DNA of 52,228 nt from Anaerolineae bacterium (lineage in GTDB: Bacteria; Chloroflexota; Anaerolineae; B4-G1; DUEL01): positions 1 to 52,228 of the forward strand of contig DAOTYD010000072.1 in assembly GCA_034435295.1 (NCBI GenBank). The letters are read 5' to 3'. The notes beneath the pieces were generated by a model. It was given only the letters and a program-made list of their open reading frames with translations, made no database searches and had not been told where the DNA came from. Numbering within the stretch: position 1 is the first letter of the stretch; the number at the start of each line of letters is the position of its first letter. Made by a program: the position numbers and the translations under genes. Below, in pieces: positions 14,987 through 28,557 of this stretch.

Positions 14987-14994
14987 CCATACAG

Positions 14995-16200
14995 CTACAT
15001 TTCCTTCACCCGGCAGGGAAAGTCATACTGCTCTGTCAGCGCCATGAACGGGTCGGGGTCAAAGGCCTCCGGCCCCAGCACCCCCACGCCCTTCCAGGCG
15101 CCGCTGTTGAGCAGGTCCCAGGCGATGACCGGGTTGACCGCCGTCTGCCAGACCACCGCCTGCACGCCGTACTTGCGCATGCAGGTCTCGTTATCGGCCA
15201 CCTGGTAGATATAGACCTGGCGCGGCTTGCCGTCCTTGATGCCCTTGACCCAGGTGCCGGCGCAGGTCTTGCCGAACATCTTGTCGCCCAGGTGGGCCGG
15301 GTCGGGCAGGCAGGCGGCGACCACGTCGCGCGGGGCCACCATCACCCCCTTGACGTTGATCGGCTCCTTGTTGTCCAGGCCGAGCATCTTGATCGTCTTC
15401 AGCACGCCGATGAACTGGTCGCCCAGGCCGTACTTGAAGGTGACGCGCTTGCACCTGACCCAGCGCGGCACCAGCAGCACCTCCTCATGCTCGACGTTGA
15501 CGCACTCGACCGGGCCGATCCCTTCGGGGAACTCAAAGACCTCCGGTTCGGAGAAAGGCTCGGTGGTGAACCAGCCGCGATCCTTTTCCCAGATCACCGG
15601 TGGGTTGAGGCATTCCTCGATGGTCGTCCAGATCGAAAAGTTGGGGGCAAACTCGTAGCCGCGCACTTCCAGGTTGGCCCCGTCGCGCACGCCGATCTCC
15701 TCGATCTCGTCGAAGAGATGCTTCTCGGCGTAGCGGGCAAAGACATCCGCCAGGCCTGGCTCGACGCCCATCCCCAGCAGCGCCAGCAGCCCCTTCTTCT
15801 CCCACTGTTCGGCGCGCTCGAACTGGTAGTCCCCCAACTTGACCCCGCACTGGCGATAGGGATCGGTGGGATGGGGCTGCGAGAGGGTCATGGCCATATC
15901 CATGTAGGTGCAGCCGTATTCGAACGCCGCGTCAAAGATCGCCTCGTTGAACACCGGGTCAACGGCATTCATGATGAGGTCCACCTGATACTTGCGGGCC
16001 ATATCGATGATGAGTTGCCGGTCGCTGGCGTCAATCCACTCCTCCGGGAACTTGTCTGGCATGCCCAGTTTCTGGCCCACCTCGCGGACGCGCTCGCGAT
16101 TATAGTCGGCCAGGACGACTTTCTCCACCCACGGACGGTCCCTGGCGACGACGGCGATCGCCTCGCCCACACCGCCCACACCGACAAGCAGAACCTTCAT
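14995..16200 (-). CDS. Saccharopine dehydrogenase family NAD(P)-binding enzyme (also resembles carboxy(nor)spermidine dehydrogenase)
   Basis: MKVLLVGVGGVGEAIA Rossmann start, about 400 aa, with the architecture typical of the Sacchrp_dh N- and C-domains. The ATG overlaps the symporter stop (ATGA). Confidence 0.7.
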   Translation of the reverse strand: MKVLLVGVGGVGEAIAVVARDRPWVEKVVLADYNRERVREVGQKLGMPDKFPEEWIDASDRQLIIDMARKYQVDLIMNAVDPVFNEAIFDAAFEYGCTYMDMAMTLSQPHPTDPYRQCGVKLGDYQFERAEQWEKKGLLALLGMGVEPGLADVFARYAEKHLFDEIEEIGVRDGANLEVRGYEFAPNFSIWTTIEECLNPPVIWEKDRGWFTTEPFSEPEVFEFPEGIGPVECVNVEHEEVLLVPRWVRCKRVTFKYGLGDQFIGVLKTIKMLGLDNKEPINVKGVMVAPRDVVAACLPDPAHLGDKMFGKTCAGTWVKGIKDGKPRQVYIYQVADNETCMRKYGVQAVVWQTAVNPVIAWDLLNSGAWKGVGVLGPEAFDPDPFMALTEQYDFPCRVKEM

Positions 16201-17780
16201 TTGTCACCTCGTTTCCCCAGTTGGAACCCCAGCGGATTGCGCATATTCAGCGGGTTGCCATCCAGATCGGTCATCACCTTCGGCGGGTCGATCTTCTGGG
16301 TCAGCAGGGAGACAACGATCAGCATCACCACAGAGATGACGAACGCAGGGAACGAAGCGATGTAGACCGCATCCCAGGTGGCATCCTCGACAAAGCCCTC
16401 GCAGATTTCCAGAGTGATGGGATAGTAGGCGAAGGTCAGGATCACCCAGGAGACCGTGCCGACGATCATGGAGCTGAGCGCGCCGATGTGGTTGGCCTTT
16501 TTCCAGTACATGCCGATGATGTAGGGGGCGACCATGCCGACCAGGATCGCCGTGCAACTCAGCACGGCCAGCCGGTATATTGTCGCAGCGTACAGGGCGA
16601 TGAGCAGGCTGATGATGCCGGTCACCAGCAGGCTGAGCCGCGTCAGCCAGAGCTGGGTCTTGTCGGACAGGTCGGGCTTGAAGACCTTGACGATGTTTTC
16701 GGTGAACATCGTCGCCCCGGCAAGCATAGAACTGTCGGAGGTGCTCATCAGCGCCGAGGCCAGAGCGGCGATAAAGATGGCGACCAGGAGGGGCGGCAGG
16801 TACTGCATAGTCATGGAGACCAGCACGAACTCTGTCTGCTCGACCTCCAGATCCGGGCCGATCGCGCCGTAGGCGGCCACGCCGATCAGCGGCGGAAGGA
16901 TGCCAAAGATCAGGTAGAGGATCGCCGCCAGGTAGGTCGCCTTGACCGCCACCGACTCGTCCTGGGCGGCGCAGGTGCGCTGCAAATAGTCCTGCGCCGG
17001 GATGCTGCCCAGGCCGATGGCCATCCAGGCGGCCAGGTAGTAGAAGATGCCCAGGTAGCCAGTGTACCCCAGGTAGCCCTCGTCGCGGATGGGCCAGAGG
17101 GCAAAGGGTTGCGAGACCCCCTGCGCGCCGGCCAGCCCCAGAAACTCGCTCAGGCCGCCCACCCGGCTGACGATGATGCCGAAGGTCACTGCCAGGCCGA
17201 TGCAGATGAGGAACATTTGCAGGAAGTCGAGCGCGGTGTCGGCCCACAGGCCGCCCATCATCGTGTAGAGGGTGACCACGGTGCCGACCAGGATCATGCC
17301 GGCCTGAAGCGGCCAGCCCAGGAGGACGTGGAGGATGCTCCCGCCGGCGACGATCTGCGCCGCCGTCCAGCCGAAGTAGGTGATGATCTGGATCACCGCG
17401 CCGATGATGGACATCGTCTTGCCGAAGCGGCGCTCGTAAAAGTCCATCAGCGTCAGGTAGTTGGCCCGGCGCGCCAGGCGGACGACCAGGAAGCCGGAGA
17501 GGATCAGGCACAGCGCCGCCCCAAAGGGGTCGAACACCACGCCCTGGAAGCCGAAGCGGTAGGCGCTGGAGCTGGAGCCCATCAGCGTCTCGGCGGCGAA
17601 CCATGTGGCCATGATGGAGGGCCCGGCCATCCATATCGGCAACCGCCGGCCGGCGACCACATAATCTACCGTGGTCTCAACGCGCCGCGAGGCCCAGTAG
17701 CCGATGGCCAGCCGGACCAGGAGGATGACCACGATCCCTCCCACAATCAGGCCAGCATACTCATAGGTTGGTCCTGGCAT
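16197..17780 (-). CDS. Sodium:solute symporter family (SSF) transporter
   Basis: 527 aa with about 13 TM segments. The N-terminus ..GYWASRRVETTVDYVVAGRRLPIWM.. is typical of the PutP/PanF/SglT family. Confidence 0.8.
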   Translation of the reverse strand: MPGPTYEYAGLIVGGIVVILLVRLAIGYWASRRVETTVDYVVAGRRLPIWMAGPSIMATWFAAETLMGSSSSAYRFGFQGVVFDPFGAALCLILSGFLVVRLARRANYLTLMDFYERRFGKTMSIIGAVIQIITYFGWTAAQIVAGGSILHVLLGWPLQAGMILVGTVVTLYTMMGGLWADTALDFLQMFLICIGLAVTFGIIVSRVGGLSEFLGLAGAQGVSQPFALWPIRDEGYLGYTGYLGIFYYLAAWMAIGLGSIPAQDYLQRTCAAQDESVAVKATYLAAILYLIFGILPPLIGVAAYGAIGPDLEVEQTEFVLVSMTMQYLPPLLVAIFIAALASALMSTSDSSMLAGATMFTENIVKVFKPDLSDKTQLWLTRLSLLVTGIISLLIALYAATIYRLAVLSCTAILVGMVAPYIIGMYWKKANHIGALSSMIVGTVSWVILTFAYYPITLEICEGFVEDATWDAVYIASFPAFVISVVMLIVVSLLTQKIDPPKVMTDLDGNPLNMRNPLGFQLGKRGDK

Positions 17781-17819
17781 TTCTCGCTCCTTTCTCCTAT
17801 AGTGGGTTGTTATCCCTGG

Positions 17820-19097
17820 CTACGAGAGGCACTCCGCCAGGGCTTTTCCAAACGCAGCGACAGCCGTCTCGATCTGTTCTTGATTGACGATCAGCGGCGG
17901 GATCCAGCGGACGACGTTGTCATACGTGCCGCAGGTGAGCAACATCAACTGGTGCTTGAGGGCGGCCTTGACGGCAGACTTGGCCACGGCGGTGGCCGGC
18001 GCGCCGTCGGCCCCGGTGAACTCGGCACCGACCATCAGCCCCAGCCCGCGCACGTCGCCGATGATGGGAAACTCTGCCTGCAACGCCTGCAACCGCTCGA
18101 TGAGCAGCGCGCCCATGCGTTGCGCGTTCTCCAGCAGCCCCTCCTCGCGCATGACGCGGATGGTGGCGACAGCGGCGGCGCAGGCGACGGCGTTCCCGCC
18201 GTAGGTGCCGCCATGCGAGCCGGGAATCCACTTCTCCATCAGTTCCCGTCGCGCCGCCACGCCGGAGAGCGGCAGGCCAGAAGCCAGCCCTTTGGCCATC
18301 GTCATGATGTCCGGCACCACGCCAAAGTGCTCGAAGGCGAACCAGCGGCCGGTGCGCCCGAAACCGCACTGGATCTCATCGGCAATGAGCAGGATGCCGT
18401 GCTCGTCGCAGATGCGGCGCACCCCCTTGAGGAAACCCGGCGGCGGCACCAGGTAGCCCCCTTCCCCCACCACCGGCTCGATCAACATTGCCGCGGTCTC
18501 GAAGGGAGCAGTCTGGCTCTTCAGCAGGAACTCGAGTTCACGCAGGCAGAACCGTTCAGCCTCCTCTGGGCTCCAGCCGTAGCGGTAGTAGTAGGGATAG
18601 GGAGCGACAAAGACCCCCGCTGGCAGCGGCTGGTAGCCGGCGCGGTAGATGGTCTTGGAGGTGGTGAGGGCCATGGTCATGCCGGTGCGGCCGTGGAAGC
18701 TGCCCTGGAAGACGATGATGTTGGGCCGGCCGGTGGCGTGGCGAGCCAGTTTGACCGCTCCCTCGATGGCCTCCGCGCCGCTGTTGGAGAAGAAGAAGCA
18801 GTCGAGCGCTGGCGGCACGATAGTGCGCAGTTCGCGCACCAGCTCCAGCAGCGGCTTGTGGTAGACGATGTTGACCTGGCCGTGCAGCAGCTTCGCCGCC
18901 TGCTCCTGCACCGCCTGCACGACCTTTGGGTGGCAGTGGCCAGTGTTGGTCACGCCGATGCCGCAGGTAAAGTCCAGGTAGCGGCTGCCGTCCTGGTCAT
19001 AGACATAGGCCCCCTCCGCCCGCTCAGCGATGATGGGCGTGTAGCGGGGCCAGATGGGGGAGATGAGTTTCTCCACGTCGGGGGAGAGGTTGGTCAT
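17820..19097 (-). CDS. Class-III PLP aminotransferase, 4-aminobutyrate/omega-amino-acid type
   Basis: The motifs are GIGVTNTGHCHPKVV, LIADEIQCGFGRTG and the PLP lysine in DIMTMAKGLASG. The start is at MTNLS with RBS aaggagga. The upstream extension to 19145 is encoded by the octamer repeat. Confidence 0.85.
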   Translation of the reverse strand: MTNLSPDVEKLISPIWPRYTPIIAERAEGAYVYDQDGSRYLDFTCGIGVTNTGHCHPKVVQAVQEQAAKLLHGQVNIVYHKPLLELVRELRTIVPPALDCFFFSNSGAEAIEGAVKLARHATGRPNIIVFQGSFHGRTGMTMALTTSKTIYRAGYQPLPAGVFVAPYPYYYRYGWSPEEAERFCLRELEFLLKSQTAPFETAAMLIEPVVGEGGYLVPPPGFLKGVRRICDEHGILLIADEIQCGFGRTGRWFAFEHFGVVPDIMTMAKGLASGLPLSGVAARRELMEKWIPGSHGGTYGGNAVACAAAVATIRVMREEGLLENAQRMGALLIERLQALQAEFPIIGDVRGLGLMVGAEFTGADGAPATAVAKSAVKAALKHQLMLLTCGTYDNVVRWIPPLIVNQEQIETAVAAFGKALAECLS

Positions 19098-19117
19098 AGG
19101 TCCTCCTTGGAAAGTGT

Positions 19118-19165
19118 GCAAGTATGCAAGTATGCAAGTATGCAAGTATGCAAGTAAGCAAGTGG
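19118..19165. repeat. Octamer tandem repeat (gcaagtat x4, gcaagtaa, gcaagtgg)
   Basis: Read directly. It lies 20 nt upstream (minus sense) of the aminotransferase start codon. It shares the gcaagt core with the pheT in-frame repeat. Confidence 0.9.
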
Positions 19166-19367
19166 GGCGACGGATTGGGGCGAGGGTTGGGCGCGGTGCT
19201 GCTCGTGTTCCTGGGCCAGCCGCTGGAAGAGGCGGTAAACCCGGCGGATAGGCAGCCTGGCGGCAGCGCCGCCGGTCGGACGATGTAGTTCTTCAGCGTT
19301 CTGTATTCCACGACGATCCCCTCCTGGCGATGGACGCCAGCCCACAGACAACGAACCACGCGACACG

Positions 19368-19397
19368 CTTTACGTTTTACGTTTTACGCTTTACGTT
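19368..19397. repeat. Heptamer tandem repeat (ctttacg ttttacg ttttacg ctttacg)
   Basis: Read directly. It lies about 24 nt downstream of the stop of the 19421-20734 gene. Confidence 0.85.
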
Positions 19398-19420
19398 CCC
19401 CCTGTCCCCCTCCCGCTCGC

Positions 19421-20734
19421 CTATCCTCCCTCCGCGATCTCCAGAGCCTGGTCGATGAGCGCCAGCCCCTCTTCCAGTTGCTCGACGGTGATGCACAGCG
19501 GCGGGACGACAAAGATCACGCTGACGTTGAAGAAGGTGAAGAGGCCCTTCTCCCGCAGGAAAGCGGCGATGGCATTCATCTCGGCGCTCTTGCCTCCCCA
19601 CGGGACCAGCGGCTCCTTTGTCTCCCGGTTCTTGACCAGTTCGATGCCAGAGAAGAGGCCGATGTAGCGCACATCGCCCACCAATGGGTGACGGGCCTTG
19701 ATCTCCTCCAGCCGCCGCCCCAGCACCTCTCCCACCTTCGCGGCGTTCTCGATCAAGCCGTCCTCTTTGTAGACCTCCAGCGTGGCAACGCCAGCGGCGC
19801 AGGCCAGCGGATGGCCGCTGTAGGTCAGCCCGCCCCACAGCATATGGTCGTCGAAGTAGCGGGCGATCGGCTCCGAGACAATGACCGCCCCCAGCGGCAC
19901 GTAGCCAGAGGTAAGCCCCTTGGCGCAGGTGATGATGTCCGGCTGCACCCCCCAGTGGTCCACCGAGAACCACTTGCCTGTACGTCCAAAGCCGCTCATC
20001 ACCTCGTCAGAGACCAGGAGGATGCCATACCGGTCGCACAGCTCGCGCACGCGCGGCCAGTAGTCTGGCGGGGGGACGATCAGCCCGTTCGATCCCGTCA
20101 CGCCCTCGAGGAACAGCGCCGCGACGTTCTGCGGCCCCTCGAAGCGGATGACGTCCTCGATGTGGGTGATACATTCGCGGTGGCAGGTCTGCGGCGTCCA
20201 GCCGAAATGGCAACGGTAGCAGTAGGGGTCAAAGACGTGCACCACGCCGGGGATCGTCGGCTCGGCAGGCCAGCGACGGGGGTCGCCGGTGAGGGCCACT
20301 GCCCCGTGGGTCGCGCCGTGGTAGGAGCGGTAGCGGGCGATGATCTTGGGGCGCCCGGTGAAGGCGCGGGCGATCTTGATGGCGTTCTCGTTCGCGTCCG
20401 CGCCGCCCAGGCAGAAAAAGGCCTTCTTCATGTTGGCCGGGGCGACCTCGGTCAGCATCTGCGCCAGGCGTCCGCGTGGTTCCGTCGCCATCGCGGGGTG
20501 GGCGAAACAGAGCCGTGCCGCCTGCTCCTGGATGGCCCGCACCACCTTGGGGTGCTGGTGACCGATGTTGAGGTTCATCAGTTGAGAAGAAAAGTCGAGA
20601 TACCGTTTGCCGTTGGCATCCCAGAAGTATACCCCCTCCGCCCTGACCATCGGGATCGGGTCCACGGCGGACTGCACCGACCAGGAGTAGAGGGTATATT
20701 CGCGGTTCAGGCGGACAATCTCTGCGGCATCCAT
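19421..20734 (-). CDS. Class-III PLP aminotransferase, omega-amine:pyruvate (beta-alanine/taurine-pyruvate-like) type
   Basis: The motifs are NIGHQHPKVV, LVSDEVMSGFGRTG and the PLP lysine in DIITCAKGLTSGY. RBS aggag is present. Confidence 0.8.
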   Translation of the reverse strand: MDAAEIVRLNREYTLYSWSVQSAVDPIPMVRAEGVYFWDANGKRYLDFSSQLMNLNIGHQHPKVVRAIQEQAARLCFAHPAMATEPRGRLAQMLTEVAPANMKKAFFCLGGADANENAIKIARAFTGRPKIIARYRSYHGATHGAVALTGDPRRWPAEPTIPGVVHVFDPYCYRCHFGWTPQTCHRECITHIEDVIRFEGPQNVAALFLEGVTGSNGLIVPPPDYWPRVRELCDRYGILLVSDEVMSGFGRTGKWFSVDHWGVQPDIITCAKGLTSGYVPLGAVIVSEPIARYFDDHMLWGGLTYSGHPLACAAGVATLEVYKEDGLIENAAKVGEVLGRRLEEIKARHPLVGDVRYIGLFSGIELVKNRETKEPLVPWGGKSAEMNAIAAFLREKGLFTFFNVSVIFVVPPLCITVEQLEEGLALIDQALEIAEGG

Positions 20735-20755
20735 TTTTTTCTCCTGAGCTTGGCT

Positions 20756-22063: not shown

Positions 22064-22090
22064 GACTCCTCCAGAAAGAGCATTTGCGTC

Positions 22091-22519
22091 TCAGGGTTGA
22101 TCGGCGGCTTCCGACGGCTGGAAAGTGACCGCGCCGGGGTAACAGAAGCGGACGCACTGCGGGTCGCCGCCGCACAGGTCGCAGGCCAACGCCTTTTGCG
22201 TCGGCACGTCGAAGCACATCGCGCCGTAGGGGCAGGCCGGCACACAGGCCGGGTGGCCGCCGCAGCCGTCACACTTTTGCAGATCAATCACCAGCGGCTG
22301 GCGCGGCGCAGGGCGGGAGATCGCCCCCTGCGGACAGGCGGCGATGCAGGGCGCTTTGGGGCAGGAGAAGCAGGCGATCACCTCGCTCTTGCCCTGCAAA
22401 GGATGGTTGGAGACGCGGATGCGCGCCCGGGTGGGGGCGAACTCTTCAAAGTGTTGCGCCGAACAGATCATCTCACACAGGTGACATCCGGTGCACAGCG
22501 TGTTTTTGAACTTGAGCAT
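22091..22519 (-). CDS. Poly-[4Fe-4S] ferredoxin-domain protein (electron partner of AOR)
   Basis: Four Cys clusters: CTGCHLCEMIC, CFSCPKAPCIAACP, CDGCGGHPACVPACP and CDLCGGDPQCVRFC. The start is at MLKFK with RBS aggagg. Confidence 0.8.
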   Translation of the reverse strand: MLKFKNTLCTGCHLCEMICSAQHFEEFAPTRARIRVSNHPLQGKSEVIACFSCPKAPCIAACPQGAISRPAPRQPLVIDLQKCDGCGGHPACVPACPYGAMCFDVPTQKALACDLCGGDPQCVRFCYPGAVTFQPSEAADQP

Positions 22520-22537
22520 GGCTCCTCCTGACAGATA

Positions 22538-22607
22538 GGACGTGCTGCGTGCTCCGTGTTCCGTGACCCAGGCGCCACACAACACGTACCACGCATCACG
22601 CAGTATG
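22538..22607. repeat. Imperfect hairpin built from inverted heptamer arrays (cgtgNNN x4 / cacgNNN x4)
   Basis: acgtgct gcgtgct ccgtgtt ccgtgac .. cacacaa cacgtac cacgcat cacgcag. It fills the AOR-ferredoxin intergenic gap. Confidence 0.75.
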
Positions 22608-22609
22608 TT

Positions 22610-24394
22610 TCACACCAGCCCCTCCAACCCCAGGGCCGCCAGCTTCTCTGCCGTGGGCACGCCGTCCTCATCCCAGCCGCGCAGGCGATAGTACTCGCTC
22701 AGCGCGGCATCGTACTCGGCGCGGGTAAAGTTCTTGCCCGCCGCAGGCCCCTCCGGCAGCGCCCGGTCGAAGAGGGCCGCTGGAGGAATGTCATCCTTGC
22801 GCCGGAAGCCCTCGCGCACGTTAAAGATGCGCCCCAGGTTCCAGATGCGCTCGCCGACAACCAGCATGTCCTGCTCCGAGTAGTCACGGCCGGTGCCAGC
22901 CGAGGTCAATGCGGCGATGTCCTCCATGCTGATGGCCCAAAAGTCGCAAAAGATGCCGGTCCACTTGGCCGCGCTGGAGTTCTGGCCATTCATCACCATC
23001 TCCGCCTTGCCCTCCAACGTGAAGGGGTTCACGGTGCCAAAGGCCTCCTCCGCCACCGGGAAGGCGCGCATGTGGCAGCCGCCGCGGTCGGAAGTGCAGT
23101 AGGCCAGCGCCATGCCGTAGGAGCCGCGCGGGTCGTAGGCGGGGAACTCCAGTCCCTTGTTCTCCATCACCAGATGGGAGGCGCCGTATTTCTGGGCGAT
23201 GTAGCGCGCGCCGTTGGCCAGTTCTGCCCCCACGCCGCGCCGATAGGCGATCTCCTCCACCGCGTTCAGATACCCCTCCACGTCGCCGAAGCGCAGGCCA
23301 AAGTCATGGATGCCCTCCTGGGCCATCAGCATGGCCAGGCCGATGACGTTGCCGGTGGAGATGCTGTCCAGCCCCAGGTTATCGCAGAGGCGGTTGAAAG
23401 AGATCACCGCACTCAGGTCGCCCATGCCGCAGTTGGAACCGCCCAGGCCCAGCGTCTCGTACTCCGGGCCCTCCATCAGTCCCTCGGCGTTGCTGACCAG
23501 TTGGCCGCAGGCCAGGGGGCAGGTGGCACAGGCGCGGTTGCGGATCTTGCGCGCCTTGATCGCGTCGGAGTTGATTCCCTTTGCGCCGTCAAAGACCCCC
23601 TGGCTGAAGCCGCGCGTCGGCAGGAGGCCGGTGCACTGCGACAGCTCCACGATCATCGGCGTGCCCATATCGTAGGCCCAGGTGTTGGCTTCAGTGAGCA
23701 GGTGGTTGTGGAAAATGTCGTCGTAGAGGCGCATAAAGGCCGCCATGTCCGGCACGCGGACGGCGCCGGTGCCGCGTATCGCCACTGCCTTGAGGTTCTT
23801 GCTGCCAAAGACCGCGCCGGGTCCGCCTCGCCCGGCCTGGCGGTAGGCCTCCGAGGTCAGGCAGGCAAAGAGGACACCGTTCTCCCCCGCCGGGCCGGCG
23901 GTAAGGGAGACCAGGTGCTCATCATTTGCCTGCTCCTTCAGCCAGGTATCTGTCTCCCAGATGCCCTGTCCCCACACCGGCGTGGCGTCGCGCAGTTCGA
24001 CGCGATCGTCCTGGATGAGCAGGGCTGTAGGGCCGGGGGCCTTGCCGGTGATGACCACGCCGTCATAGCCGGCCAGTTTCATCTGCCAGGCGAACGCGCC
24101 GCCGACGTAAGAGTCCAGGATCGTGCCGGTAGCGGGGGAACGGGTGCAGACGACCGTGCGGGCGGTGGTGGCCACGCAGGTGCCGGCCAGCGCGCCGGAG
24201 AAGAGCACGAGTGCATTCTGCGGCGAGAGCGGATCGGTATGAGGGAGCAGCACATCGAAGAGGTAGCGGAAGCCCAACCCTTTGCCGCCCACAAAGTCCG
24301 CCGCCCACGCGGCGTTCAGCGGCTCCGTCTGCACCTTCCCACTCGTCAGGTCCACTCGCAAGACCTTGCCTGCATAACAGTTCTTTCTTTCCAT
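22610..24394 (-). CDS. aor: Aldehyde:ferredoxin oxidoreductase (tungstopterin AOR family)
   Basis: AOR N-terminal domain (YAGKVLRVDLTSGKV), EYETLG, the [4Fe-4S] ligand motif CATCPLAC, and DRGGCH. The start is at MERKN with RBS aaggagg. Confidence 0.85.
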   Translation of the reverse strand: MERKNCYAGKVLRVDLTSGKVQTEPLNAAWAADFVGGKGLGFRYLFDVLLPHTDPLSPQNALVLFSGALAGTCVATTARTVVCTRSPATGTILDSYVGGAFAWQMKLAGYDGVVITGKAPGPTALLIQDDRVELRDATPVWGQGIWETDTWLKEQANDEHLVSLTAGPAGENGVLFACLTSEAYRQAGRGGPGAVFGSKNLKAVAIRGTGAVRVPDMAAFMRLYDDIFHNHLLTEANTWAYDMGTPMIVELSQCTGLLPTRGFSQGVFDGAKGINSDAIKARKIRNRACATCPLACGQLVSNAEGLMEGPEYETLGLGGSNCGMGDLSAVISFNRLCDNLGLDSISTGNVIGLAMLMAQEGIHDFGLRFGDVEGYLNAVEEIAYRRGVGAELANGARYIAQKYGASHLVMENKGLEFPAYDPRGSYGMALAYCTSDRGGCHMRAFPVAEEAFGTVNPFTLEGKAEMVMNGQNSSAAKWTGIFCDFWAISMEDIAALTSAGTGRDYSEQDMLVVGERIWNLGRIFNVREGFRRKDDIPPAALFDRALPEGPAAGKNFTRAEYDAALSEYYRLRGWDEDGVPTAEKLAALGLEGLV

Positions 24395-24430
24395 TTGCCC
24401 TCCTTCTCTCCGCAACTCTGTATCTCGGAT

Positions 24431-25243
24431 TTATGCCCAGTCCGACACCTCGTTGTACCACGGCTTTTTTGTTCCCACCTGGGCGCGCCGCTTCCAACGG
24501 CCGGACTTGGGAGCGTCCTCGATGGCCCGGAGGATCAGGTCGGCCTTGGTGCTGATGATGGCCCGTTGTTCGTCGCTCAAGGCCGCCACGCCCGCCATCG
24601 CCGCCTTGACCCGTCCCAGGTTGGTGGTCGCCGTGTAGTAAAAGCCCCAGTCATCCGCCATGATCCTGGCCACGTAGCGGCGGTTGATCTGATCGCGGTC
24701 GTCGTCCCCCACCGGCGCGGCCAGCAGCAGAAGCATGCCATCCTTGAGGTCCTTGTCGTTGATCTGCACGATCTGCAATTTCTGCAGCAGCAGGTCCGTC
24801 AGCGAGACACAGTAGGGGTGGATCTCCAGGCGACCCTTGTAGTCCACGCAGTGGTTCATGTCCAGCCGGTCGAAGAAGACATCGATCATCGGGATGCGCT
24901 CGCTGAAATAGATGTGGCGGTTCTGGCCGAAGAGCATCATCGTGCGCCGGTCATAGTCGTACCCCTGGGACTGGAAGAAGCCGACCAGTTTGCCCCGGTG
25001 CTTGCCGTAAGCAGCATAGTCGATGTCGGTAAAGACCCGCTCGCCGAGCCGTTCCATGCGCTGGTAGAGGTCCACATAGTCGGGAAAGTAGTAATGCAGG
25101 GCGATGGGGCCCATCACGCGCAGGATCAGCCCCTGCTGTTGCGCCGCCTCGATCAACCGGCGTGCCTCCTCCAGATAGGTCTCCGGTTTGGGATACTCCT
25201 CCAGCGGAATATCTTTGGGTAGCCTGAACTTCCTTTCAGCCAT
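24431..25243 (-). CDS. Hypothetical protein, possible nucleotidyltransferase-fold (NTP_transf_5-like)
   Basis: 270 aa. LRVMGPIALHYY....ERVFTDIDYAAY resembles a G[GS]-x(n)-D.D NTase motif. The assignment is weak and made only by eye. Confidence 0.35.
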   Translation of the reverse strand: MAERKFRLPKDIPLEEYPKPETYLEEARRLIEAAQQQGLILRVMGPIALHYYFPDYVDLYQRMERLGERVFTDIDYAAYGKHRGKLVGFFQSQGYDYDRRTMMLFGQNRHIYFSERIPMIDVFFDRLDMNHCVDYKGRLEIHPYCVSLTDLLLQKLQIVQINDKDLKDGMLLLLAAPVGDDDRDQINRRYVARIMADDWGFYYTATTNLGRVKAAMAGVAALSDEQRAIISTKADLILRAIEDAPKSGRWKRRAQVGTKKPWYNEVSDWA

Positions 25244-25270
25244 ATCATGCTCCGTGCGGTGTACTTTGTC

Positions 25271-25340
25271 TTTCGTGTTGCGTGTTGCGTGGTGCGTGAC
25301 GCGTGCCACCACGGAACACGCACCACGCAACACGTCACCC
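25271..25340. repeat. Heptamer-array hairpin with an 18-bp stem
   Basis: gtgttgcgtggtgcgtg (25282-25298) is the exact reverse complement of cacgcaccacgcaacac (25317-25333), plus one flanking C-G pair. The arms are tgcgtgN / cacgcaN heptamers. Confidence 0.9.
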
Positions 25341-25343
25341 ACA

Positions 25344-26273
25344 TCAGCCCGAGGTGAACACATAGTCCTTCAGTTTGCCCTTCTGCATGATCAACACCAC
25401 ACCCTTGAGGATGCCCTCCGAGTACTCGCTGCCGGGGTTGACGATGGTCGTGCGGCCGATCTTCTGAACACCCCGCGACTCGTGGATGTGGCCGTGAAGG
25501 CCGAGGAGGGGCTGGTATTTCTGGATCATCCTGGCCACCGCCCGGCTGCCCACGTGGATCTTGCGGTCCGCCGCCTGTACCAGGTCCTTGGTCAGCTCTG
25601 GAGCCAGGTCGAGCGCATAGCCATAGGGCGGGGCGTGGAAGTTGAAGATAGAGTTGGGTACGTTCTTGATCTGCGCGATCAGCGCCTCCAACATCGGCTC
25701 CAGTTCCTCATCGGGCTTCTCCCGCGGCGTGTCCCACGGCGTCGGGTTGGTCCAGGCGAAGGTGGCCATCTCGTGCTCGCCGACCATCACCACGCGGTCG
25801 TTGCAGTTGACGATGGCCGCCGAGTCGGAGATGACGTCGTCCACTTCCAGATGGTCATCGTTGCCCGGAGCCATGTACACCTTGAACGGGCTGCCAGCCA
25901 GCCGCTCGTCGGCCAGGGCGATCCATTCCTTCAGACGGGCCAGCATCAGTTGTTTGAACAGCTCGTCCTGGGCCTGCTGGTCGACCTTGAGCGCGTGGAA
26001 CTCGTCGGGGGTCAGGTGGACCCAGTAATAGCCCACCATCTCGATGGTCTTTTTCAGTTTCGCCAGTTCCTCTTCGGTCTCCACCTGCATCGGCGAGCCC
26101 ATGAAGGTGGTCTCCCACCCCCCGCCGGCCCGCTCTACCAGGGGAATGAGCATCTTCCCGGTCAGGTCGCCGAGCAGGATGCCCACGTCCACCTGGTAGA
26201 TGCGCAGGGCGTTGAGGAACTTGCGGTAGCAGACGTTCGAGCCGTGAATATCCGTGACGAAGAATATCCGCAT
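25344..26273 (-). CDS. Calcineurin-like metallophosphoesterase
   Basis: MRIFFVTDIHGS, LLGDLTGK, GNDD, NFHAPPYG and GLHGHIHES are the canonical MPE motifs I-V. Confidence 0.8.
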   Translation of the reverse strand: MRIFFVTDIHGSNVCYRKFLNALRIYQVDVGILLGDLTGKMLIPLVERAGGGWETTFMGSPMQVETEEELAKLKKTIEMVGYYWVHLTPDEFHALKVDQQAQDELFKQLMLARLKEWIALADERLAGSPFKVYMAPGNDDHLEVDDVISDSAAIVNCNDRVVMVGEHEMATFAWTNPTPWDTPREKPDEELEPMLEALIAQIKNVPNSIFNFHAPPYGYALDLAPELTKDLVQAADRKIHVGSRAVARMIQKYQPLLGLHGHIHESRGVQKIGRTTIVNPGSEYSEGILKGVVLIMQKGKLKDYVFTSG

Positions 26274-26289
26274 CAGGCTTGTCCCCCTC

Positions 26290-27924
26290 TCACTCCGGCG
26301 GCAACTCGCCGTAGGTCATGCTCACGTCAACCCCCACTTGCCTGTTGCGCGCCTTCCAGAAATAATACCAGGCGATGCCCAGACCCCAGATGACGATGTA
26401 AAAGATCAGCGAGCCGATGGTCAGCCCCTCCAGGTCGGGCATGACGATGAAGAAGTAGAACAGGATCGCCAGGTAGATCAGGTTCACCACCGCCCCGATG
26501 GTGACCGCCGGGATGCCCAGGACGCGCCAGTGGCGATAGGGAGAGGCCTCCCAGATGTGGCGCGCCTTTTTGACGAAGGGGAAAAGCAGCGCGGCGATGG
26601 CCGTCACGCCAAAGACGGAAACGATCTCCATGCCGGTGACCGACAGCCCGCTCATCTGCTCCTGCCACAGAGAGTAGAGCAGGATGCCGATCTCTCCCAG
26701 CACGAAACACAGGATGTGGTTCTTCACCGGCGTGGCCCAGCGAGGATGGATGTCGGTGAACCACTTTGGCCCCATGCGGTCCATCCCCCAGGCAAAGAGG
26801 ATGCGCGGGAAGGCCATGTAGGACAGGGCCACCCACCACAGGTTGAAAAGGATGAAGGAGAGGGCCATCAGGAAGAGGACGATAAAGCGCAGCAGCGGGC
26901 TGGACAGGGTGTAGGTGACCACCGCCGCCAGGCCGACGAAATGCGGCGACCAGGGGAGCGCGTAACCGGCCAGTTCACCGCCCAGGGTCTCGTCCACATA
27001 GGCAGTGGCGCTCAGGAACTGGAAGCCGACAGTGCGGTAGAGGACAATGGACAGCCAGAGCATGAAAAAGGCCGGCACCAGGATGGCAAACAGATTGCCC
27101 AGGATGATGGATTTGTCCGGCCGCTTGACCTCGCCAGCGATGAAGGTGATGCAGTAGCTGTAGGCGAAGAGCCATGACCCCGCCACCATCACCCCCAACG
27201 TGTCGAACCAGTTCCAGGTGACCGGCAGCACATCCCCCGCCTCCTCCATCGCCGACCGCACCGCTGCCAGGAAGGAGTTATAGTCCAGCGAGCCGAACTG
27301 AGCCGACACGCCGTTCCACGCCTGGACGAACTGATCGTGCGAGGTGAAGGTAAAGACCAGCAGGATGACCAGCGCGCCCAGGATACCCAGGGCCATGATC
27401 ACCTTCTGCACGCGGGCGAAGAACTTGATGCCAAAGATCAGGAAAAGGAGCGCGATAAAGTTGACCAGGCTGGCGATCAGGAACAGCGCCCACGGCTGCG
27501 AGAGGAACTCTGTGGCGCGGTCCCAGCCGAGGAACTGGCACAACATCACCAGACCAGGGTCCACCGTCCAGGGGGCCAGGACGTAAATCCACATGATCCA
27601 GACAAAGGCGTTGCCAAAACTCTCGGCGATGCCGATCAGCGGGCTGATGATGCGCGAGTTGTAGATGTACTCGCCGCCGCTGCGCGGCATGCTCCCCCCC
27701 AGGATGCCCCACACCAGCGAGAAGCCGATGCCGCACATCACCGCCGAAAGAAGGGTGGCGATGATCAGGTTCCCTCCCGTATAGACCGACAGGCCCAGGC
27801 TGATCATCACCCACATGCTGGGGGTCAGTCCCTGATTCATAAAGCCAACACCAAAGGCGTCCAATAAGGACAGCCCCCGTACCAGGCCGCTCGCTTTACG
27901 GGCAAACACTCTTTCCTCAGCCAT
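26290..27924 (-). CDS. APC-superfamily amino acid/polyamine permease
   Basis: 544 aa and multi-TM. The APC N-terminal signature is FGVGFMNQG..GGSMPRSGGEYIY. The start is at MAEER with RBS ggaaggagg. Confidence 0.75.
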   Translation of the reverse strand: MAEERVFARKASGLVRGLSLLDAFGVGFMNQGLTPSMWVMISLGLSVYTGGNLIIATLLSAVMCGIGFSLVWGILGGSMPRSGGEYIYNSRIISPLIGIAESFGNAFVWIMWIYVLAPWTVDPGLVMLCQFLGWDRATEFLSQPWALFLIASLVNFIALLFLIFGIKFFARVQKVIMALGILGALVILLVFTFTSHDQFVQAWNGVSAQFGSLDYNSFLAAVRSAMEEAGDVLPVTWNWFDTLGVMVAGSWLFAYSYCITFIAGEVKRPDKSIILGNLFAILVPAFFMLWLSIVLYRTVGFQFLSATAYVDETLGGELAGYALPWSPHFVGLAAVVTYTLSSPLLRFIVLFLMALSFILFNLWWVALSYMAFPRILFAWGMDRMGPKWFTDIHPRWATPVKNHILCFVLGEIGILLYSLWQEQMSGLSVTGMEIVSVFGVTAIAALLFPFVKKARHIWEASPYRHWRVLGIPAVTIGAVVNLIYLAILFYFFIVMPDLEGLTIGSLIFYIVIWGLGIAWYYFWKARNRQVGVDVSMTYGELPPE

Positions 27925-28006
27925 TCCTCCTTCCCTCCTGTCTTTATAGATGGAATCTGGATATATCACTCACAGGGGAACTGTAACGGAGAAAGCACAG
28001 ATCACC

Positions 28007-28495
28007 TCATACTCCCTCCTCACTGACTACTGACTCAGGAATGCCCCAGTCCTGGATGTCTTTCACAATGACAGGGACAAGGATCGTGCTGGTGCGGCGC
28101 ACTCCAGGCACCTTGCCCACAACCTCGGTGACAAAGTGATAGAGGGACTCGTTGTCTCGCGCCTGCACCTGGATGCTCAGATCGCGGTCGCCCGTGGAGC
28201 AGGCGACGTAGGAGACTTGGGGGAACTCGGCCATCTTCCGCGCCACTTCCAACACGCGGCCCGGCTCGATCTCCAGCCACACATCGGCGCAGACGGGGAA
28301 ACCGATCGCCTTGGGGTTCACCAGCGCGCTGACGCGCAACACCCCACTCTCCACCATCCGGCGGATGCGGTGCCCCACGCCGCGCGCCGTGATCCGCCCC
28401 CCCAGGCGACGGGCAATGTCCGCACAGGACATCCGCCCATCCTCGATCAGCAGCGCCACAATTTCCCGGTCCAGCCGGTCAACCTTATGGCCCAT
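28007..28495 (-). CDS. Lrp/AsnC family transcriptional regulator
   Basis: The HTH is LDREIVALLIEDGRMSCADIARRLG, followed by a C-terminal RAM/AsnC_trans_reg fold (VWLEIEPG..YVACSTGDRDLSIQV). Confidence 0.85.
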   Translation of the reverse strand: MGHKVDRLDREIVALLIEDGRMSCADIARRLGGRITARGVGHRIRRMVESGVLRVSALVNPKAIGFPVCADVWLEIEPGRVLEVARKMAEFPQVSYVACSTGDRDLSIQVQARDNESLYHFVTEVVGKVPGVRRTSTILVPVIVKDIQDWGIPESVVSEEGV

Positions 28496-28527
28496 ACCTC
28501 TCCCCCGGAGCGCCGTTTATGCCGCGT

Positions 28528-28556
28528 ATTATAAGAAACTCTTCCGAAAATGTCAA
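28528..28556 (-). promoter_or_regulatory. Consensus sigma70 promoter TTGACA-N17-TATAAT for the Lrp gene
   Basis: The minus strand reads cTTGACAttttcggaagagtttctTATAATacg. The -35 is at 28556-28551 and the -10 at 28533-28528. The ATG at 28495 has RBS gggggagagg. Confidence 0.75.
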
Positions 28557-28557
28557 G

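What the first reader, a model, noticed from the sequence alone, without database searches (positions are those of the whole stretch)
14995..28556. Lrp-controlled cluster pairing three different class-III aminotransferases with a tungsten-type aldehyde:ferredoxin oxidoreductase: a candidate ferredoxin-linked amine catabolic pathway
Twelve co-directional genes are tightly spaced or overlapping. In order they are an Lrp/AsnC regulator with a perfect consensus promoter, an APC permease, a metallophosphoesterase, an NTase-like protein, AOR, a 4-cluster ferredoxin, a GSA-aminomutase-like aminotransferase, an omega-amine:pyruvate-like aminotransferase, a GabT-like aminotransferase, a Na+/solute symporter, and a saccharopine/carboxyspermidine-dehydrogenase-like enzyme.

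Transaminating primary amines or omega-amino acids yields aldehydes, and AOR oxidises aldehydes to acids with ferredoxin as acceptor. A saccharopine-DH-type enzyme could open a secondary amine such as a polyamine or an opine-like compound.

Known putrescine, GABA and lysine routes use NAD(P)-dependent aldehyde dehydrogenases. I am not aware of a characterised route with this exact gene set. The substrate cannot be read from the sequence.
Basis: inference. Interest (0 to 1): 0.7.

Follow-up and report, generated by a model that had tools for sequence, protein, structure and literature searches.

The report
Amine-breakdown operon using tungsten aldehyde oxidoreductase
An uncultured Chloroflexota bacterium carries an 11-gene operon that most likely breaks down polyamines and related amines, but oxidises the aldehyde intermediates with a tungsten-type, ferredoxin-linked enzyme instead of the usual NAD-dependent dehydrogenases; in relatives that enzyme's iron-sulfur subunit is fused to one of the aminotransferases.

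Summary
The cluster is real, at 14995-28556 on the minus strand. It has 11 genes, not 12. They are Lrp/AsnC (behind a 12/12 TTGACA-N17-TATAAT promoter), an APC permease, a metallophosphoesterase, an NTase-fold protein with no Pfam family, an AOR with all catalytic and cofactor residues, a 4x[4Fe-4S] ferredoxin (together a "Class II WOR"), three different class-III aminotransferases, an SSS symporter and a carboxyspermidine-dehydrogenase-like enzyme.

- The same orthologous modules recur, shuffled, in many Chloroflexota contigs.
- Where AOR-ferredoxin sits here, relatives have an NAD-type aldehyde dehydrogenase after AT1-AT2.
- All 5 AOR-anchored orthologue contexts have a class-III aminotransferase after the ferredoxin. 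An outgroup at 52% identity has none.
- In at least 8 protein clusters the ferredoxin is fused in frame to the AT1 orthologue.
- Related clusters carry PotABCD-like transporters, a PatA-like putrescine aminotransferase, an agmatinase-like protein and a glutarate/succinate-type CoA-transferase. This points to di- and polyamines.

None of the aminotransferases reaches the HemL or ArgD score cut-offs. I found no published description.

Substrate, direction, co-transcription and metal content remain inferred. I rate it a new variant of a known kind, interest about 0.65.

The parts
28528..28556 (-). Sigma-70-type promoter TTGACA-N17-TATAAT upstream of the Lrp gene
   Evidence: 12/12 consensus match. 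It is the only perfect match in 14000-29500 and was read directly.
28558..28582 (.). 9-bp tandem repeat (CTTTGTGTC x2.8) abutting the -35 box. It could be an operator or UP-like element, or just one of the genome's many intergenic microrepeats.
28007..28495 (-). Lrp/AsnC-family regulator, first gene of the cluster
   Evidence: HTH_AsnC-type plus AsnC_trans_reg. An orthologue (47-67% identity) heads the related clusters.
26290..27924 (-). APC-superfamily permease (544 aa), presumed importer
   Evidence: AA_permease_2. Always followed by MPE and UNK in relatives, at 63-92% identity.
25344..26273 (-). Metallophosphoesterase (309 aa), role unknown
   Evidence: Metallophos. Motifs DIH / GD / GNDD / H / GHIHE are present. 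Orthologues are 71-91% identical.
24431..25243 (-). NTase-fold protein (270 aa) with no Pfam family, role unknown
   Evidence: No Pfam hit at E<=10. There are 1449 homologues; every source name shown among the listed hits is 'hypothetical protein'. AF2 pLDDT 91.2. Foldseek top hits are ANT(2'')-Ia, MenT and LnuA. G45, D73 and D75 are invariant.
22610..24394 (-). Aldehyde:ferredoxin oxidoreductase large subunit (WorL, 594 aa)
   Evidence: AFOR_N plus AFOR_C. Scores 461 bits to 9mqx and 411 bits to PfAOR 1aor. PfAOR Thr243, Glu313, Tyr427, His448 and Cys288/291/295/494 are all aligned and conserved.
22091..22519 (-). Four-cluster [4Fe-4S] ferredoxin-like small subunit (WorS, 142 aa)
   Evidence: Four CxxCxxCxxxC-type motifs. 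Fer4_9/7/11. Fused to the AT1 orthologue in L091 and L092 and in P0241-P0248.
20756..22063 (-). AT1: class-III aminotransferase of the GSA-aminomutase-like subfamily. Proposed diamine/polyamine aminotransferase that feeds aldehyde to AOR.
   Evidence: NCBIfam GntE model 622.8 against cut-off 525; hemL 370 against 527. PDB best hits are GSAM. Neighbours elsewhere include PotABCD-like, Aldedh and AOR2.
19421..20734 (-). AT2: class-III omega-aminotransferase. Proposed beta-alanine/taurine-type aminotransferase.
   Evidence: PRK06062 602.5 against cut-off 472. 47.5% identical to B. kashiwanohense taurine:2-oxoglutarate aminotransferase 6jix.
19098..19420 (.). 323-bp intergenic gap with two short tandem-repeat arrays. 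Possible internal regulatory region or rearrangement scar.
   Evidence: No Rfam hit. In the nearest relative, L084, AT1 is followed directly by AT3.
17820..19097 (-). AT3: GabT/PuuE-like class-III aminotransferase (425 aa)
   Evidence: PRK08117 565 against 574; GABAtrnsam 421 against 507; argD 367 against 410. PDB best hits are PuuE and GabT. Adjacent to an AOR-family gene in L008, L017, L086, L088 and L089.
16197..17780 (-). Sodium:solute symporter (527 aa)
   Evidence: SSF; TIGR00813 187 against 184. Its stop overlaps the SDH start by 4 bp.
14995..16200 (-). Carboxy(nor)spermidine-dehydrogenase-like Sacchrp_dh-family enzyme (401 aa). Proposed to open or make a secondary amine.
   Evidence: Sacchrp_dh_NADP plus Sacchrp_dh_C. 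The only NCBIfam hit is carboxynorspermidine synthase, 198 bits against cut-off 800. Aligns full length to 4ina, 4rl6 and 8deb. Orthologues (73-92%) always lie next to a transporter, and often next to the PatA-like AT4.

Best explanation
This is a catabolic operon for imported di- or polyamines and the omega-amino acids derived from them. Primary amino groups are removed by three non-redundant class-III aminotransferases. The resulting aldehydes are oxidised to acids by one two-subunit tungsten-type aldehyde oxidoreductase (AOR plus a four-cluster ferredoxin subunit, 'Class II WOR'). That enzyme passes electrons to ferredoxin and takes the place of the NAD(P)-dependent aldehyde dehydrogenases of the classical PatA-PatD-GabT-GabD type route.

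Working scheme (inferred, not shown):
1. The substrate enters through the APC and/or SSS transporter.
2. The carboxyspermidine-dehydrogenase-like enzyme cleaves a secondary amine of the spermidine/norspermidine type into a diamine and an amino-aldehyde.
3. AT1 transaminates the diamine.
4. AOR converts 3-aminopropanal and 4-aminobutanal to beta-alanine and GABA.
5. AT2 (beta-alanine/taurine type) and AT3 (GabT type) transaminate these.
6. AOR oxidises the resulting semialdehydes to malonate and succinate.

AT1 probably docks on the ferredoxin subunit, to which it is covalently fused in relatives, so that reactive amino-aldehydes pass directly to the tungsten site. The Lrp/AsnC protein is the likely local regulator.

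The metallophosphoesterase and the NTase-fold protein belong to the conserved Lrp-APC unit, but their role is unknown.
For: What the sequence shows directly
- The AOR keeps all catalytic and cofactor residues (residue list from PMC13328260).
- The ferredoxin has four cluster motifs.
- The cluster encodes no FAD/NAD subunit and no Aldedh-family gene.

Co-conservation
- The orthologous modules recur in L005, L007-L009, L084 and L086-L094.

Non-orthologous displacement
- AT1-AT2 is followed by an Aldedh gene in L005, L007, L008, L009, L088 and L089.
- AT1 is preceded by AOR-FER in the window, L091 and L092.

Unbiased test from the AOR side
- 5 of 5 AOR-anchored orthologues carry a class-III AT after FER, as does L087, which was reached through UNK.
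- In L087, L093 and L094 the pair is PatA-like (584-586 bits against a 612 cut-off) then GabT-like. That is the putrescine route with the dehydrogenases missing.
- The outgroup at 52% identity has no AT.

Fusion
- FER is fused in frame to AT1 in two independent contigs.
- Eight 90%-identity protein clusters, spanning 67-100% identity, show the same fusion.

Polyamine markers in related clusters
- PotA passes its NCBIfam cut-off, and PotB/C/D are the best hits for their neighbours.
- An agmatinase-like protein scores 173.8 against 174.3.
- A CoA-transferase has succinate--glutarate CoA-transferase as its best model, below cut-off.
- MoeA genes lie next to one related cluster.

Placement of the aminotransferases
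- The ATs are below the HemL and ArgD cut-offs.

Literature
- FOR of P. furiosus has long been proposed to oxidise glutaric semialdehyde (PMC12096430).
- Only 5 of 92 WOR clades have a defined role, and aminotransferases are not mentioned in that survey (PMC13328260).
Against: - There is no expression or biochemical evidence.
- The window itself has no Pot transporter and no PatA-like AT4, so the polyamine assignment is borrowed from relatives.
- AT1's substrate is unknown. Its best HMM is a guanitoxin transaminase model and its nearest structures are GSA aminomutases.
- AT2 is closest to a taurine aminotransferase.
- The SDH-like enzyme is far below the CANSDH cut-off (198 against 800), and no enzyme of this family is known to me to work catabolically.
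- The nearest relative (86-92% identity) lacks AOR-FER here, so the pairing is modular rather than fixed.
- The 323-bp gap may split the cluster into two transcripts.
- Most loci were reached through AT1 or UNK, which biases the adjacency counts (17 of 28 AOR-family genes directly next to an AT).
- AORs can also run in reverse.
- Two conserved genes (MPE, UNK) are unexplained by the model.
Confidence: 0.6

Rival explanations
1. Catabolism of basic amino acids (lysine or ornithine) rather than polyamines. The Sacchrp_dh enzyme would act as a saccharopine dehydrogenase, or an aminotransferase as a lysine-epsilon or ornithine-delta aminotransferase. AOR would oxidise aminoadipate, glutamate or glutarate semialdehyde, and the other aminotransferases would handle 2-aminoadipate or 5-aminovalerate.
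For: - APC and SSS transporters commonly carry amino acids.
- AT3 has sizeable scores to the 2-aminoadipate transaminase and LysJ models.
- An ornithine-cyclodeaminase-family gene lies next to a Sacchrp_dh paralogue in L091.
- A glutarate-type CoA-transferase is found in L087 and L092.
- FOR has been proposed to oxidise glutaric semialdehyde (PMC12096430).
Against: - The SDH matches only carboxy(nor)spermidine-dehydrogenase-type structures and models. No saccharopine reductase structure appears at E<=0.001.
- No lysine-ketoglutarate reductase (AlaDH-type) partner is present.
- Relatives carry PotABCD-like, PatA-like and agmatinase-like genes.
Confidence: 0.12
2. A mosaic 'amine island' without one common pathway. 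Several independent small modules (Lrp-APC-MPE-UNK; AT plus aldehyde oxidiser pairs; SSS-SDH) happen to be packed together. AOR would act as a broad aldehyde detoxifier for whatever the aminotransferases produce, mainly to scavenge nitrogen from diverse amines, including taurine/hypotaurine via AT2.
For: - Module order is shuffled between genomes, and each module occurs without the others.
- The nearest relative lacks AOR-FER at this site.
- AT2 is 48% identical to a taurine:2-oxoglutarate aminotransferase that is used for nitrogen assimilation.
- Characterised Class I and IV WORs are assigned detoxification roles (PMC13328260).
- The 323-bp repeat-filled gap looks like a rearrangement scar.
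Against: - The FER-AT1 fusion argues for a dedicated rather than incidental partnership.
- The modules nevertheless stay within one neighbourhood across 47-92% sequence divergence.
- All genes are co-directional behind one strong promoter.
Confidence: 0.15
3. The pathway runs in the reductive, biosynthetic direction. AOR, driven by reduced ferredoxin, reduces a carboxylic acid to an aldehyde. The fused or adjacent aminotransferase aminates it. The carboxyspermidine-dehydrogenase-like enzyme then condenses aldehyde and amine into a polyamine-like product that is exported.
For: - From established knowledge, AORs reduce acids in acetogens and in biocatalysis.
- GntE, the best HMM for AT1, works from aldehyde to amine (own knowledge of guanitoxin biosynthesis).
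- CASDH and CANSDH are biosynthetic reductive condensers.
- A fusion would equally help capture a scarce aldehyde.
Against: - The position can be filled by an NAD-type Aldedh, which is essentially irreversible towards the acid.
- Uptake-type PotABCD systems with a binding protein are present in relatives.
- No carboxyspermidine decarboxylase is present.
- Three aminotransferases, one of them GabT-like, fit stepwise degradation better.
Confidence: 0.07

Closest known systems
Putrescine transaminase pathway of E. coli (PatA/YgjG, PatD/YdcW, GabT or PuuE, GabD)
   Same: The logic is the same: amine to aldehyde by a class-III aminotransferase, aldehyde to acid, then a second transamination and a second oxidation. 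There is a GabT/PuuE-like AT3. In relatives a PatA-like aminotransferase directly follows AOR-FER.
   Different: The window cluster has no NAD(P) aldehyde dehydrogenase. One tungsten-type AOR with a poly-ferredoxin subunit stands in its place. PatA itself is absent from the window. The window has two further aminotransferase types (GSAM-like AT1 and Toa-like AT2) and a CASDH-like enzyme.
Class II tungsten oxidoreductases (WorL plus WorS), e.g. P. furiosus ASOR/WOR5 and C. bescii GOR; also the AorAB core of the Aromatoleum aromaticum AOR
   Same: A large subunit with conserved tungstopterin and [4Fe-4S] residues, plus an adjacent small subunit with four [4Fe-4S] motifs (PMC13328260).
   Different: The sequence is closest to the AOR clade (9mqx, 1aor, 8c0z), not to WOR5 (194 bits). 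The gene context is aminotransferases. In relatives WorS is fused to a PLP enzyme, an architecture not listed among Classes I-V of PMC13328260. No FAD subunit (AorC/WorN) is present.
P. furiosus formaldehyde:ferredoxin oxidoreductase (FOR)
   Same: A WOR-family enzyme whose proposed natural substrates are C4-C6 semialdehydes or dialdehydes from amino-acid or amine breakdown (PMC12096430).
   Different: FOR is a homotetramer without WorS and has no defining gene context. The window AOR scores lower to FOR (334 bits) than to AORs (411-461 bits).
Carboxyspermidine / carboxynorspermidine dehydrogenase (CASDH/CANSDH; PDB 8deb, 4ina, 4rl6)
   Same: Full-length homology and the same two Pfam domains. 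It is the only NCBIfam hit.
   Different: The score is far below the family cut-off (198 against 800). No carboxyspermidine decarboxylase partner is present. The gene always lies next to transporters, aminotransferases and an Lrp regulator, which suggests a different, possibly cleaving, reaction.
Taurine:2-oxoglutarate aminotransferase Toa of Bifidobacterium kashiwanohense (6jix)
   Same: AT2 is 47.5% identical over 427 residues.
   Different: No sulfoacetaldehyde reductase, Xsc or isethionate genes are nearby. Beta-alanine, the carboxylate analogue of taurine, fits the context equally well.

Membership tests
AOR/WOR family, Class II (WorL+WorS) sensu PMC13328260 | Large subunit with AFOR N-terminal and C-terminal domains | tested here: met
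   PF02730 at 236 bits and PF01314 at 397 bits.
AOR/WOR family, Class II (WorL+WorS) sensu PMC13328260 | Conserved second-shell residues (PfAOR Thr243, Glu313, Tyr427, His448) and the four Cys ligands of the [4Fe-4S] cluster | tested here: met
   All are aligned and identical in the phmmer alignment to 1aor. The residue list comes from PMC13328260. The Cys numbering is from my own knowledge of 1aor.
AOR/WOR family, Class II (WorL+WorS) sensu PMC13328260 | Adjacent small subunit with four [4Fe-4S] motifs, and no NAD/FAD or bifurcating subunits | tested here: met
   There are four Cys motifs in the 142-aa protein that starts 90 bp downstream of AOR. No flavoprotein gene is in the cluster.
AOR/WOR family, Class II (WorL+WorS) sensu PMC13328260 | Tungsten (not molybdenum) in the cofactor, and ferredoxin as electron acceptor | not testable with these tools
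   This needs metal analysis and enzyme assays.
Putrescine transaminase pathway (PatA-PatD-GabT-GabD) | PatA-type putrescine aminotransferase | tested here: not met
   None of the three window ATs is of this type. The PatA-like AT4 (584-586 bits against a 612 cut-off) is present only in relatives.
Putrescine transaminase pathway (PatA-PatD-GabT-GabD) | NAD(P)-dependent aminobutyraldehyde and succinate-semialdehyde dehydrogenases | tested here: not met
   No Aldedh-family gene lies in 14995-28556. Relatives have one after AT1-AT2.
Putrescine transaminase pathway (PatA-PatD-GabT-GabD) | GabT-type 4-aminobutyrate aminotransferase | tested here: inconclusive
   AT3's best PDB hits are PuuE and GabT (339 and 328 bits). 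It is nevertheless below the TIGR00700 cut-off (421 against 507) and just below PRK08117 (565 against 574).
Glutamate-1-semialdehyde 2,1-aminomutase (HemL) | Score at or above the equivalog cut-off | tested here: not met
   AT1 scores 370.1 against 527.3 for TIGR00713, and 393.9 against 398 for PRK00062. Its context is Lrp, transporters and aldehyde oxidisers rather than haem genes.
Guanitoxin transaminase GntE | HMM score above cut-off AND membership of a gnt biosynthetic cluster | tested here: not met
   The HMM criterion is met (622.8 against 525). No other guanitoxin-type genes occur in the window or in about 90 related loci. The name is probably an over-annotation; PGAP already applies it to P0342.
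Acetylornithine aminotransferase (ArgD) | Score at or above the TIGR00707 cut-off | tested here: not met
   AT3 scores 367.4, AT2 268.4 and AT1 167.2, against a cut-off of 410.05.
Carboxy(nor)spermidine dehydrogenase | Score above the NF043000 cut-off, and an adjacent carboxy(nor)spermidine decarboxylase | tested here: not met
   The score is 197.8 against 800. No decarboxylase is in the cluster. Homology is clear and full length.
Pol-beta-type nucleotidyltransferase fold (for the 270-aa protein) | Fold match plus the G...DxD catalytic signature | tested here: inconclusive
   Foldseek probability is 1.00, but E is 5.6e-4 and TM only 0.32-0.54 to ANT(2'')-Ia, LnuA and MenT. G45, D73 and D75 are invariant in 31 homologues. 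There is no Pfam match.
Lrp/AsnC regulators | N-terminal AsnC-type HTH plus C-terminal ligand-binding RAM domain | tested here: met
   PF13404 and PF01037. No equivalog cut-off is reached, so its specific effector is unknown.

The most novel reading that the evidence does not exclude
The aminotransferase, the poly-ferredoxin subunit and the tungsten subunit form one physical complex. In some Chloroflexota the first two are covalently fused. This would be a PLP-FeS-tungsten 'amine:ferredoxin oxidoreductase' that channels toxic amino-aldehydes from the PLP site to the tungsten site. It would be a sixth architectural class of tungsten oxidoreductase. It would also give a physiological role, semialdehyde and amino-aldehyde oxidation in polyamine or omega-amine catabolism, to at least three so far uncharacterised AOR paralogue groups (AOR1, AOR2, AOR3) that sit next to class-III aminotransferases.
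Probability: 0.35. Interest if true: 0.8.

Novelty: new variant of a known kind. Interest (0 to 1): 0.65.

Why it matters
- Only five of the 92 clades of tungsten oxidoreductases have a defined physiological role (PMC13328260). The 25-year-old suggestion that some of them oxidise semialdehydes from amine or basic-amino-acid breakdown has never had a genetic context.
- This cluster and its relatives supply that context. They also supply a natural aldehyde-dehydrogenase to AOR swap and a ferredoxin-aminotransferase fusion, which make the idea directly testable.
- If correct, abundant uncultured Chloroflexota of hot springs, sediments and bioreactors conserve low-potential electrons (reduced ferredoxin) from polyamine degradation. 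That would matter for their energy budget and would tie nitrogen-rich necromass turnover to tungsten availability.
- A naturally coupled transaminase-AOR pair is also of interest to biocatalysis, where cascades between amines and acids are engineered.
- Two database names for AT1 orthologues, 'GSA aminomutase' and 'guanitoxin GntE', appear to be misleading.

Tried and rejected
- HemL or ArgD identity for the aminotransferases: rejected on curated HMM cut-offs and on context.
- True saccharopine dehydrogenase for the last gene: no such structure is matched; only CASDH-type ones are.
- Riboswitch or known RNA in the 323-bp gap or elsewhere: Rfam found only tRNA-Phe.
- Defence-system identity for the NTase-fold/phosphoesterase pair: there is no PADLOC hit for the NTase-fold protein and only a weak one (PDC-S10, 37 bits) for the phosphoesterase. 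Their fixed position after an APC permease inside catabolic clusters argues against it.
- Structure of the metallophosphoesterase from a single sequence: useless (pLDDT 43), so no fold search was made. PDB sequence search gave only a marginal hit.
- A twelfth gene: the small ORFs at 19024-19366 overlap the repeat-filled gap, have no Pfam hit, and were not called on the public contig.
- Tungstate transport or cofactor genes in the window: none found. MoeA genes are present next to one related cluster.
- Literature: seven full-text searches found no paper that links AOR-family enzymes to class-III aminotransferases or to polyamine catabolism. The 2026 WOR classification does not mention aminotransferases.
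- My GC3-based gene caller mis-picked some antisense ORFs, so I relied on the public gene calls instead.

Full report
**Origin and observation**

The window has 65% G+C. It is identical to a public metagenome contig (ENA ERZ505355 NODE_423, also found in two JGI metagenomes).

The nearest relatives of its genes are uncultured Chloroflexota, labelled Anaerolineae or 'Chloroflexia' MAGs.

The count of twelve is a slip.

The TTGACA-N17-TATAAT promoter upstream of the Lrp gene is a 12/12 match and the only one in 15.5 kb.

Most junctions are 16-39 bp, or overlap (SSS and SDH share ATGA). Three are 82-100 bp. The AT2-AT3 junction is 323 bp and is filled with 7-8-bp tandem repeats. No credible terminator lies inside the cluster. 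Flanking genes are housekeeping.

**The parts**

*Regulator and transporters.* The regulator has both Lrp/AsnC domains. The transporters are an APC-superfamily permease and an SSS symporter.

*AOR and ferredoxin.*
- The AOR is a bona fide member of the AOR clade. It scores 461 bits to 9mqx, 411 to P. furiosus AOR and 389 to the Aromatoleum AOR, against 194 to WOR5.
- Thr243, Glu313, Tyr427, His448 and the four cluster cysteines (PfAOR numbering) are all conserved (residue list from PMC13328260).
- The next gene encodes a 142-aa protein with four Cys motifs for [4Fe-4S] clusters.
- The pair is therefore what Putumbaka et al. 2026 call a Class II WOR (WorL plus WorS, ferredoxin as carrier). Metal content and acceptor cannot be tested here.

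*The three aminotransferases* belong to different subfamilies.
- AT1 is GSA-aminomutase-like. It is below the HemL cut-off (370 against 527) but above the cut-off of the NCBIfam 'GntE' model (623 against 525).
- AT2 passes PRK06062 and is 47.5% identical to the taurine:2-oxoglutarate aminotransferase of B. kashiwanohense.
- AT3 is GabT/PuuE-like. It is below the ArgD cut-off and just below PRK08117.

*The last enzyme* aligns over its full length with carboxyspermidine-dehydrogenase-type structures and with nothing else in the PDB. Its only NCBIfam hit is carboxynorspermidine synthase, far below cut-off.

*The two unexplained genes.*
- The 309-aa metallophosphoesterase keeps its metal-binding motifs.
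- The 270-aa protein has no Pfam family even at E<=10. It has 1449 homologues. The 120 listed are 71-99% identical, and every source name shown for them is 'hypothetical protein'.
- It gives a confident AF2 model (pLDDT 91). The best structural matches of that model are Pol-beta-type nucleotidyltransferases, with modest TM-scores.

**Co-conservation**

I fetched 80 GTDB loci through AT1 and further contigs through the NTase-fold protein. All were compared with the window proteins by tblastn. The genes fall into orthologous modules that recur in shuffled order:

| Module | Composition | Identity to window |
|---|---|---|
| A | Lrp-APC-MPE-UNK | APC, MPE, UNK 63-92%; Lrp 47-67% |
| B | AT1(-AT2) plus an aldehyde oxidiser | |
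| C | AT3 plus an AOR-family gene | |
| D | SDH next to a transporter, and often next to a fourth, PatA-like aminotransferase (AT4) | |

The closest relative (L084, 86-92% identity) has APC-MPE-UNK-AT1-AT3-SSS-SDH without AOR-FER. It pairs AT2 with a second AOR paralogue (AOR2, 631 aa, about 33% identical) in a divergent two-gene unit.

A third paralogue (AOR3, about 577 aa) accompanies an Aldedh gene and a small Ferritin_2-like gene in L087, L093 and L094.

Of 28 AOR-family genes in all the loci, 17 are directly next to a class-III aminotransferase and 22 lie within 3 kb. These counts are biased by how the loci were chosen.

**An unbiased test from the AOR side**

I searched with the AOR itself and looked up five orthologues of 63-77% identity, plus one homologue of 52% from Bacillota.
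- All five orthologues are followed by the four-cluster ferredoxin and then a class-III aminotransferase. In L090 an agmatinase-like gene lies in between.
- Four of the five are preceded by Lrp-APC-MPE-UNK.
- The outgroup sits among FAD-oxidase, ETF and molybdopterin genes, with no aminotransferase.
- In L087, L093 and L094 the order is AOR-FER-AT4-(CoA-transferase)-AT3. AT4 scores 584-586 bits on the E. coli putrescine aminotransferase model (cut-off 612), and AT3 is the GabT-like enzyme. That is the textbook putrescine to GABA to succinate route with both dehydrogenases missing and an AOR in their place.

**Two further lines of evidence**

*Displacement.* AT1-AT2 is followed by an NAD-type aldehyde dehydrogenase in L005, L007, L008, L009, L088 and L089. 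In the window, L091 and L092, AOR-FER precedes AT1 and no Aldedh gene is present in the unit. This non-orthologous displacement says that an aldehyde-oxidising step belongs with these aminotransferases.

*Fusion.* In L091 and L092, the gene after the AOR is a single uninterrupted ORF of 587-592 aa. Residues 3 to about 139 are 77-78% identical to the window ferredoxin. Residues from about 155 to the end are 77% and 68.5% identical to AT1 over its full length.

A database search with this protein found eight distinct 90%-identity clusters that carry both Fer4 and Aminotran_3 Pfam domains. They span 67-100% identity and come from NCBI, JGI, ENA and Logan assemblies. The fusion is therefore real and has been kept through considerable divergence. 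It implies that AT1 works in physical contact with the electron-transfer subunit of the AOR.

**Which amines**

The window alone does not say. Related clusters point to di- and polyamines:
- AT1 is next to a PotABCD-like ABC transporter in more than ten Anaerolineae loci. PotA passes the polyamine-ATPase subfamily cut-off (384 against 356), and PotB, PotC and PotD are the best models for their neighbours.
- In those loci it sits together with an Aldedh gene, a DAO-family flavoprotein, a Sacchrp_dh paralogue and AOR2.
- Also present in relatives are the PatA-like AT4, an agmatinase-like protein (173.8 against 174.3) and a CoA-transferase whose best model is succinate--glutarate CoA-transferase.
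- The window's own last enzyme is CASDH/CANSDH-like.

**Working model**

This scheme is inferred, not shown.
1. A spermidine/norspermidine-type compound is imported.
2. The SDH-like enzyme opens it to a diamine plus an amino-aldehyde.
3. AT1 transaminates the diamine.
4. AOR oxidises 3-aminopropanal and 4-aminobutanal to beta-alanine and GABA.
5. AT2 and AT3 transaminate these.
6. AOR oxidises the semialdehydes.

The scheme uses all five enzymes and explains why three different aminotransferases accompany a single aldehyde oxidiser.

There is also a chemical rationale. Transamination of amines to aldehydes is poorly favoured, and amino-aldehydes are toxic. Coupling to the very exergonic aldehyde oxidation, which has a low enough potential to reduce ferredoxin, pulls the reaction. 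This reasoning rests on established knowledge of these enzyme classes.

**What remains open**

- The substrates, the direction of flux, co-transcription across the 323-bp gap, and control by Lrp are all untested.
- Tungsten content and ferredoxin as acceptor cannot be tested here.
- The roles of the phosphoesterase and the NTase-fold protein are unknown. These two are the most conserved genes of the whole island.
- Rival readings are listed with their evidence: lysine or ornithine catabolism; a mosaic of independent nitrogen-scavenging modules with AOR as a general detoxifier; and a reductive acid-to-amine route.

**Comparison with the known, and novelty**

The logic is that of the known transaminase routes for putrescine and GABA. 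The AOR is an ordinary-looking member of a known family. What differs is the combination:
- a Class II tungsten-type AOR replaces the NAD(P) dehydrogenases;
- the pairing recurs with three AOR paralogues;
- the WorS subunit is fused to a PLP aminotransferase.

The 2026 survey of 4,064 WOR neighbourhoods defines five classes, none with a PLP partner. It states that only five of 92 clades have a defined role, and it does not mention aminotransferases or amines. A 2025 review records only the old proposal that FOR oxidises glutaric semialdehyde. Seven full-text searches found no description of this association.

I therefore rate it a new variant of a known kind, interest about 0.65.

Noticed in passing
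L091:10800-12578 and L092:10808-12571 (relatives); corresponds to window 20756-22519: The four-cluster ferredoxin and the AT1 aminotransferase, separate genes 27 bp apart in the window, form one in-frame fusion protein of 587-592 aa in relatives. Eight distinct protein clusters with this Fer4 plus Aminotran_3 architecture were found (P0241-P0248).
   Followed up: yes
window 24431-25243 and 25344-26273: An NTase-fold protein with no Pfam family (about 1450 homologues; the 120 listed are 71-99% identical) and a metallophosphoesterase with intact metal motifs always follow the same APC permease. They are the most conserved genes of the island. Their role in an amine pathway is unexplained.
   Followed up: partly
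window 19112-19163, 19365-19397, 25274-25339, 28558-28582, 4899-5006, 48353-48419, 51629-51686: Short tandem repeats with 7-9-bp units fill many intergenic gaps of this genome. One array abuts the -35 box of the consensus promoter. Two arrays lie in the AT2-AT3 gap, just upstream of the AT3 ribosome-binding site.
   Followed up: partly
window 34909-35018 (inside the pheT ORF 33513-36116): Tandem repeats with 24-bp and 8-bp units lie inside the phenylalanyl-tRNA synthetase beta-chain ORF, between the B3_4 and B5 domains. They may be an in-frame low-complexity insertion.
   Followed up: no
window 20756-22063 and its orthologues (e.g. P0342): AT1 orthologues are named 'guanitoxin biosynthesis transaminase GntE' by PGAP and 'glutamate-1-semialdehyde 2,1-aminomutase' by JGI. 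Neither fits the gene context. The NCBIfam GntE equivalog model appears to be too broad.
   Followed up: partly
L084:3736-5631, L093:1909-3642 and many other loci: Two further AOR paralogue groups also sit next to class-III aminotransferases in Chloroflexota. AOR2 is about 631-640 aa, with a ThiS-like gene nearby in one locus (L088). AOR3 is about 575-580 aa and comes with an Aldedh gene and a small Ferritin_2-like gene.
   Followed up: partly
window 48491-48731 and 27-191: There are longer direct-repeat arrays near the window ends: a 29/93-bp unit, GC-rich, with about 6.7 copies, and a 68-bp unit with 2.4 copies. Their nature is unknown.
   Followed up: no
window 28723-31299: Directly upstream of the cluster, on the same strand, lie an amino-acid-kinase-family gene (probable isopentenyl phosphate kinase), a GHMP kinase (mevalonate-kinase-like) and a UbiA prenyltransferase. 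This is a small isoprenoid unit unrelated to the finding.
   Followed up: no
window 39061-39897: A gene with an AbiEi_4 antitoxin-type HTH domain lies near tRNA-Phe (41227-41302). It may be a remnant of a toxin-antitoxin or mobile element.
   Followed up: no
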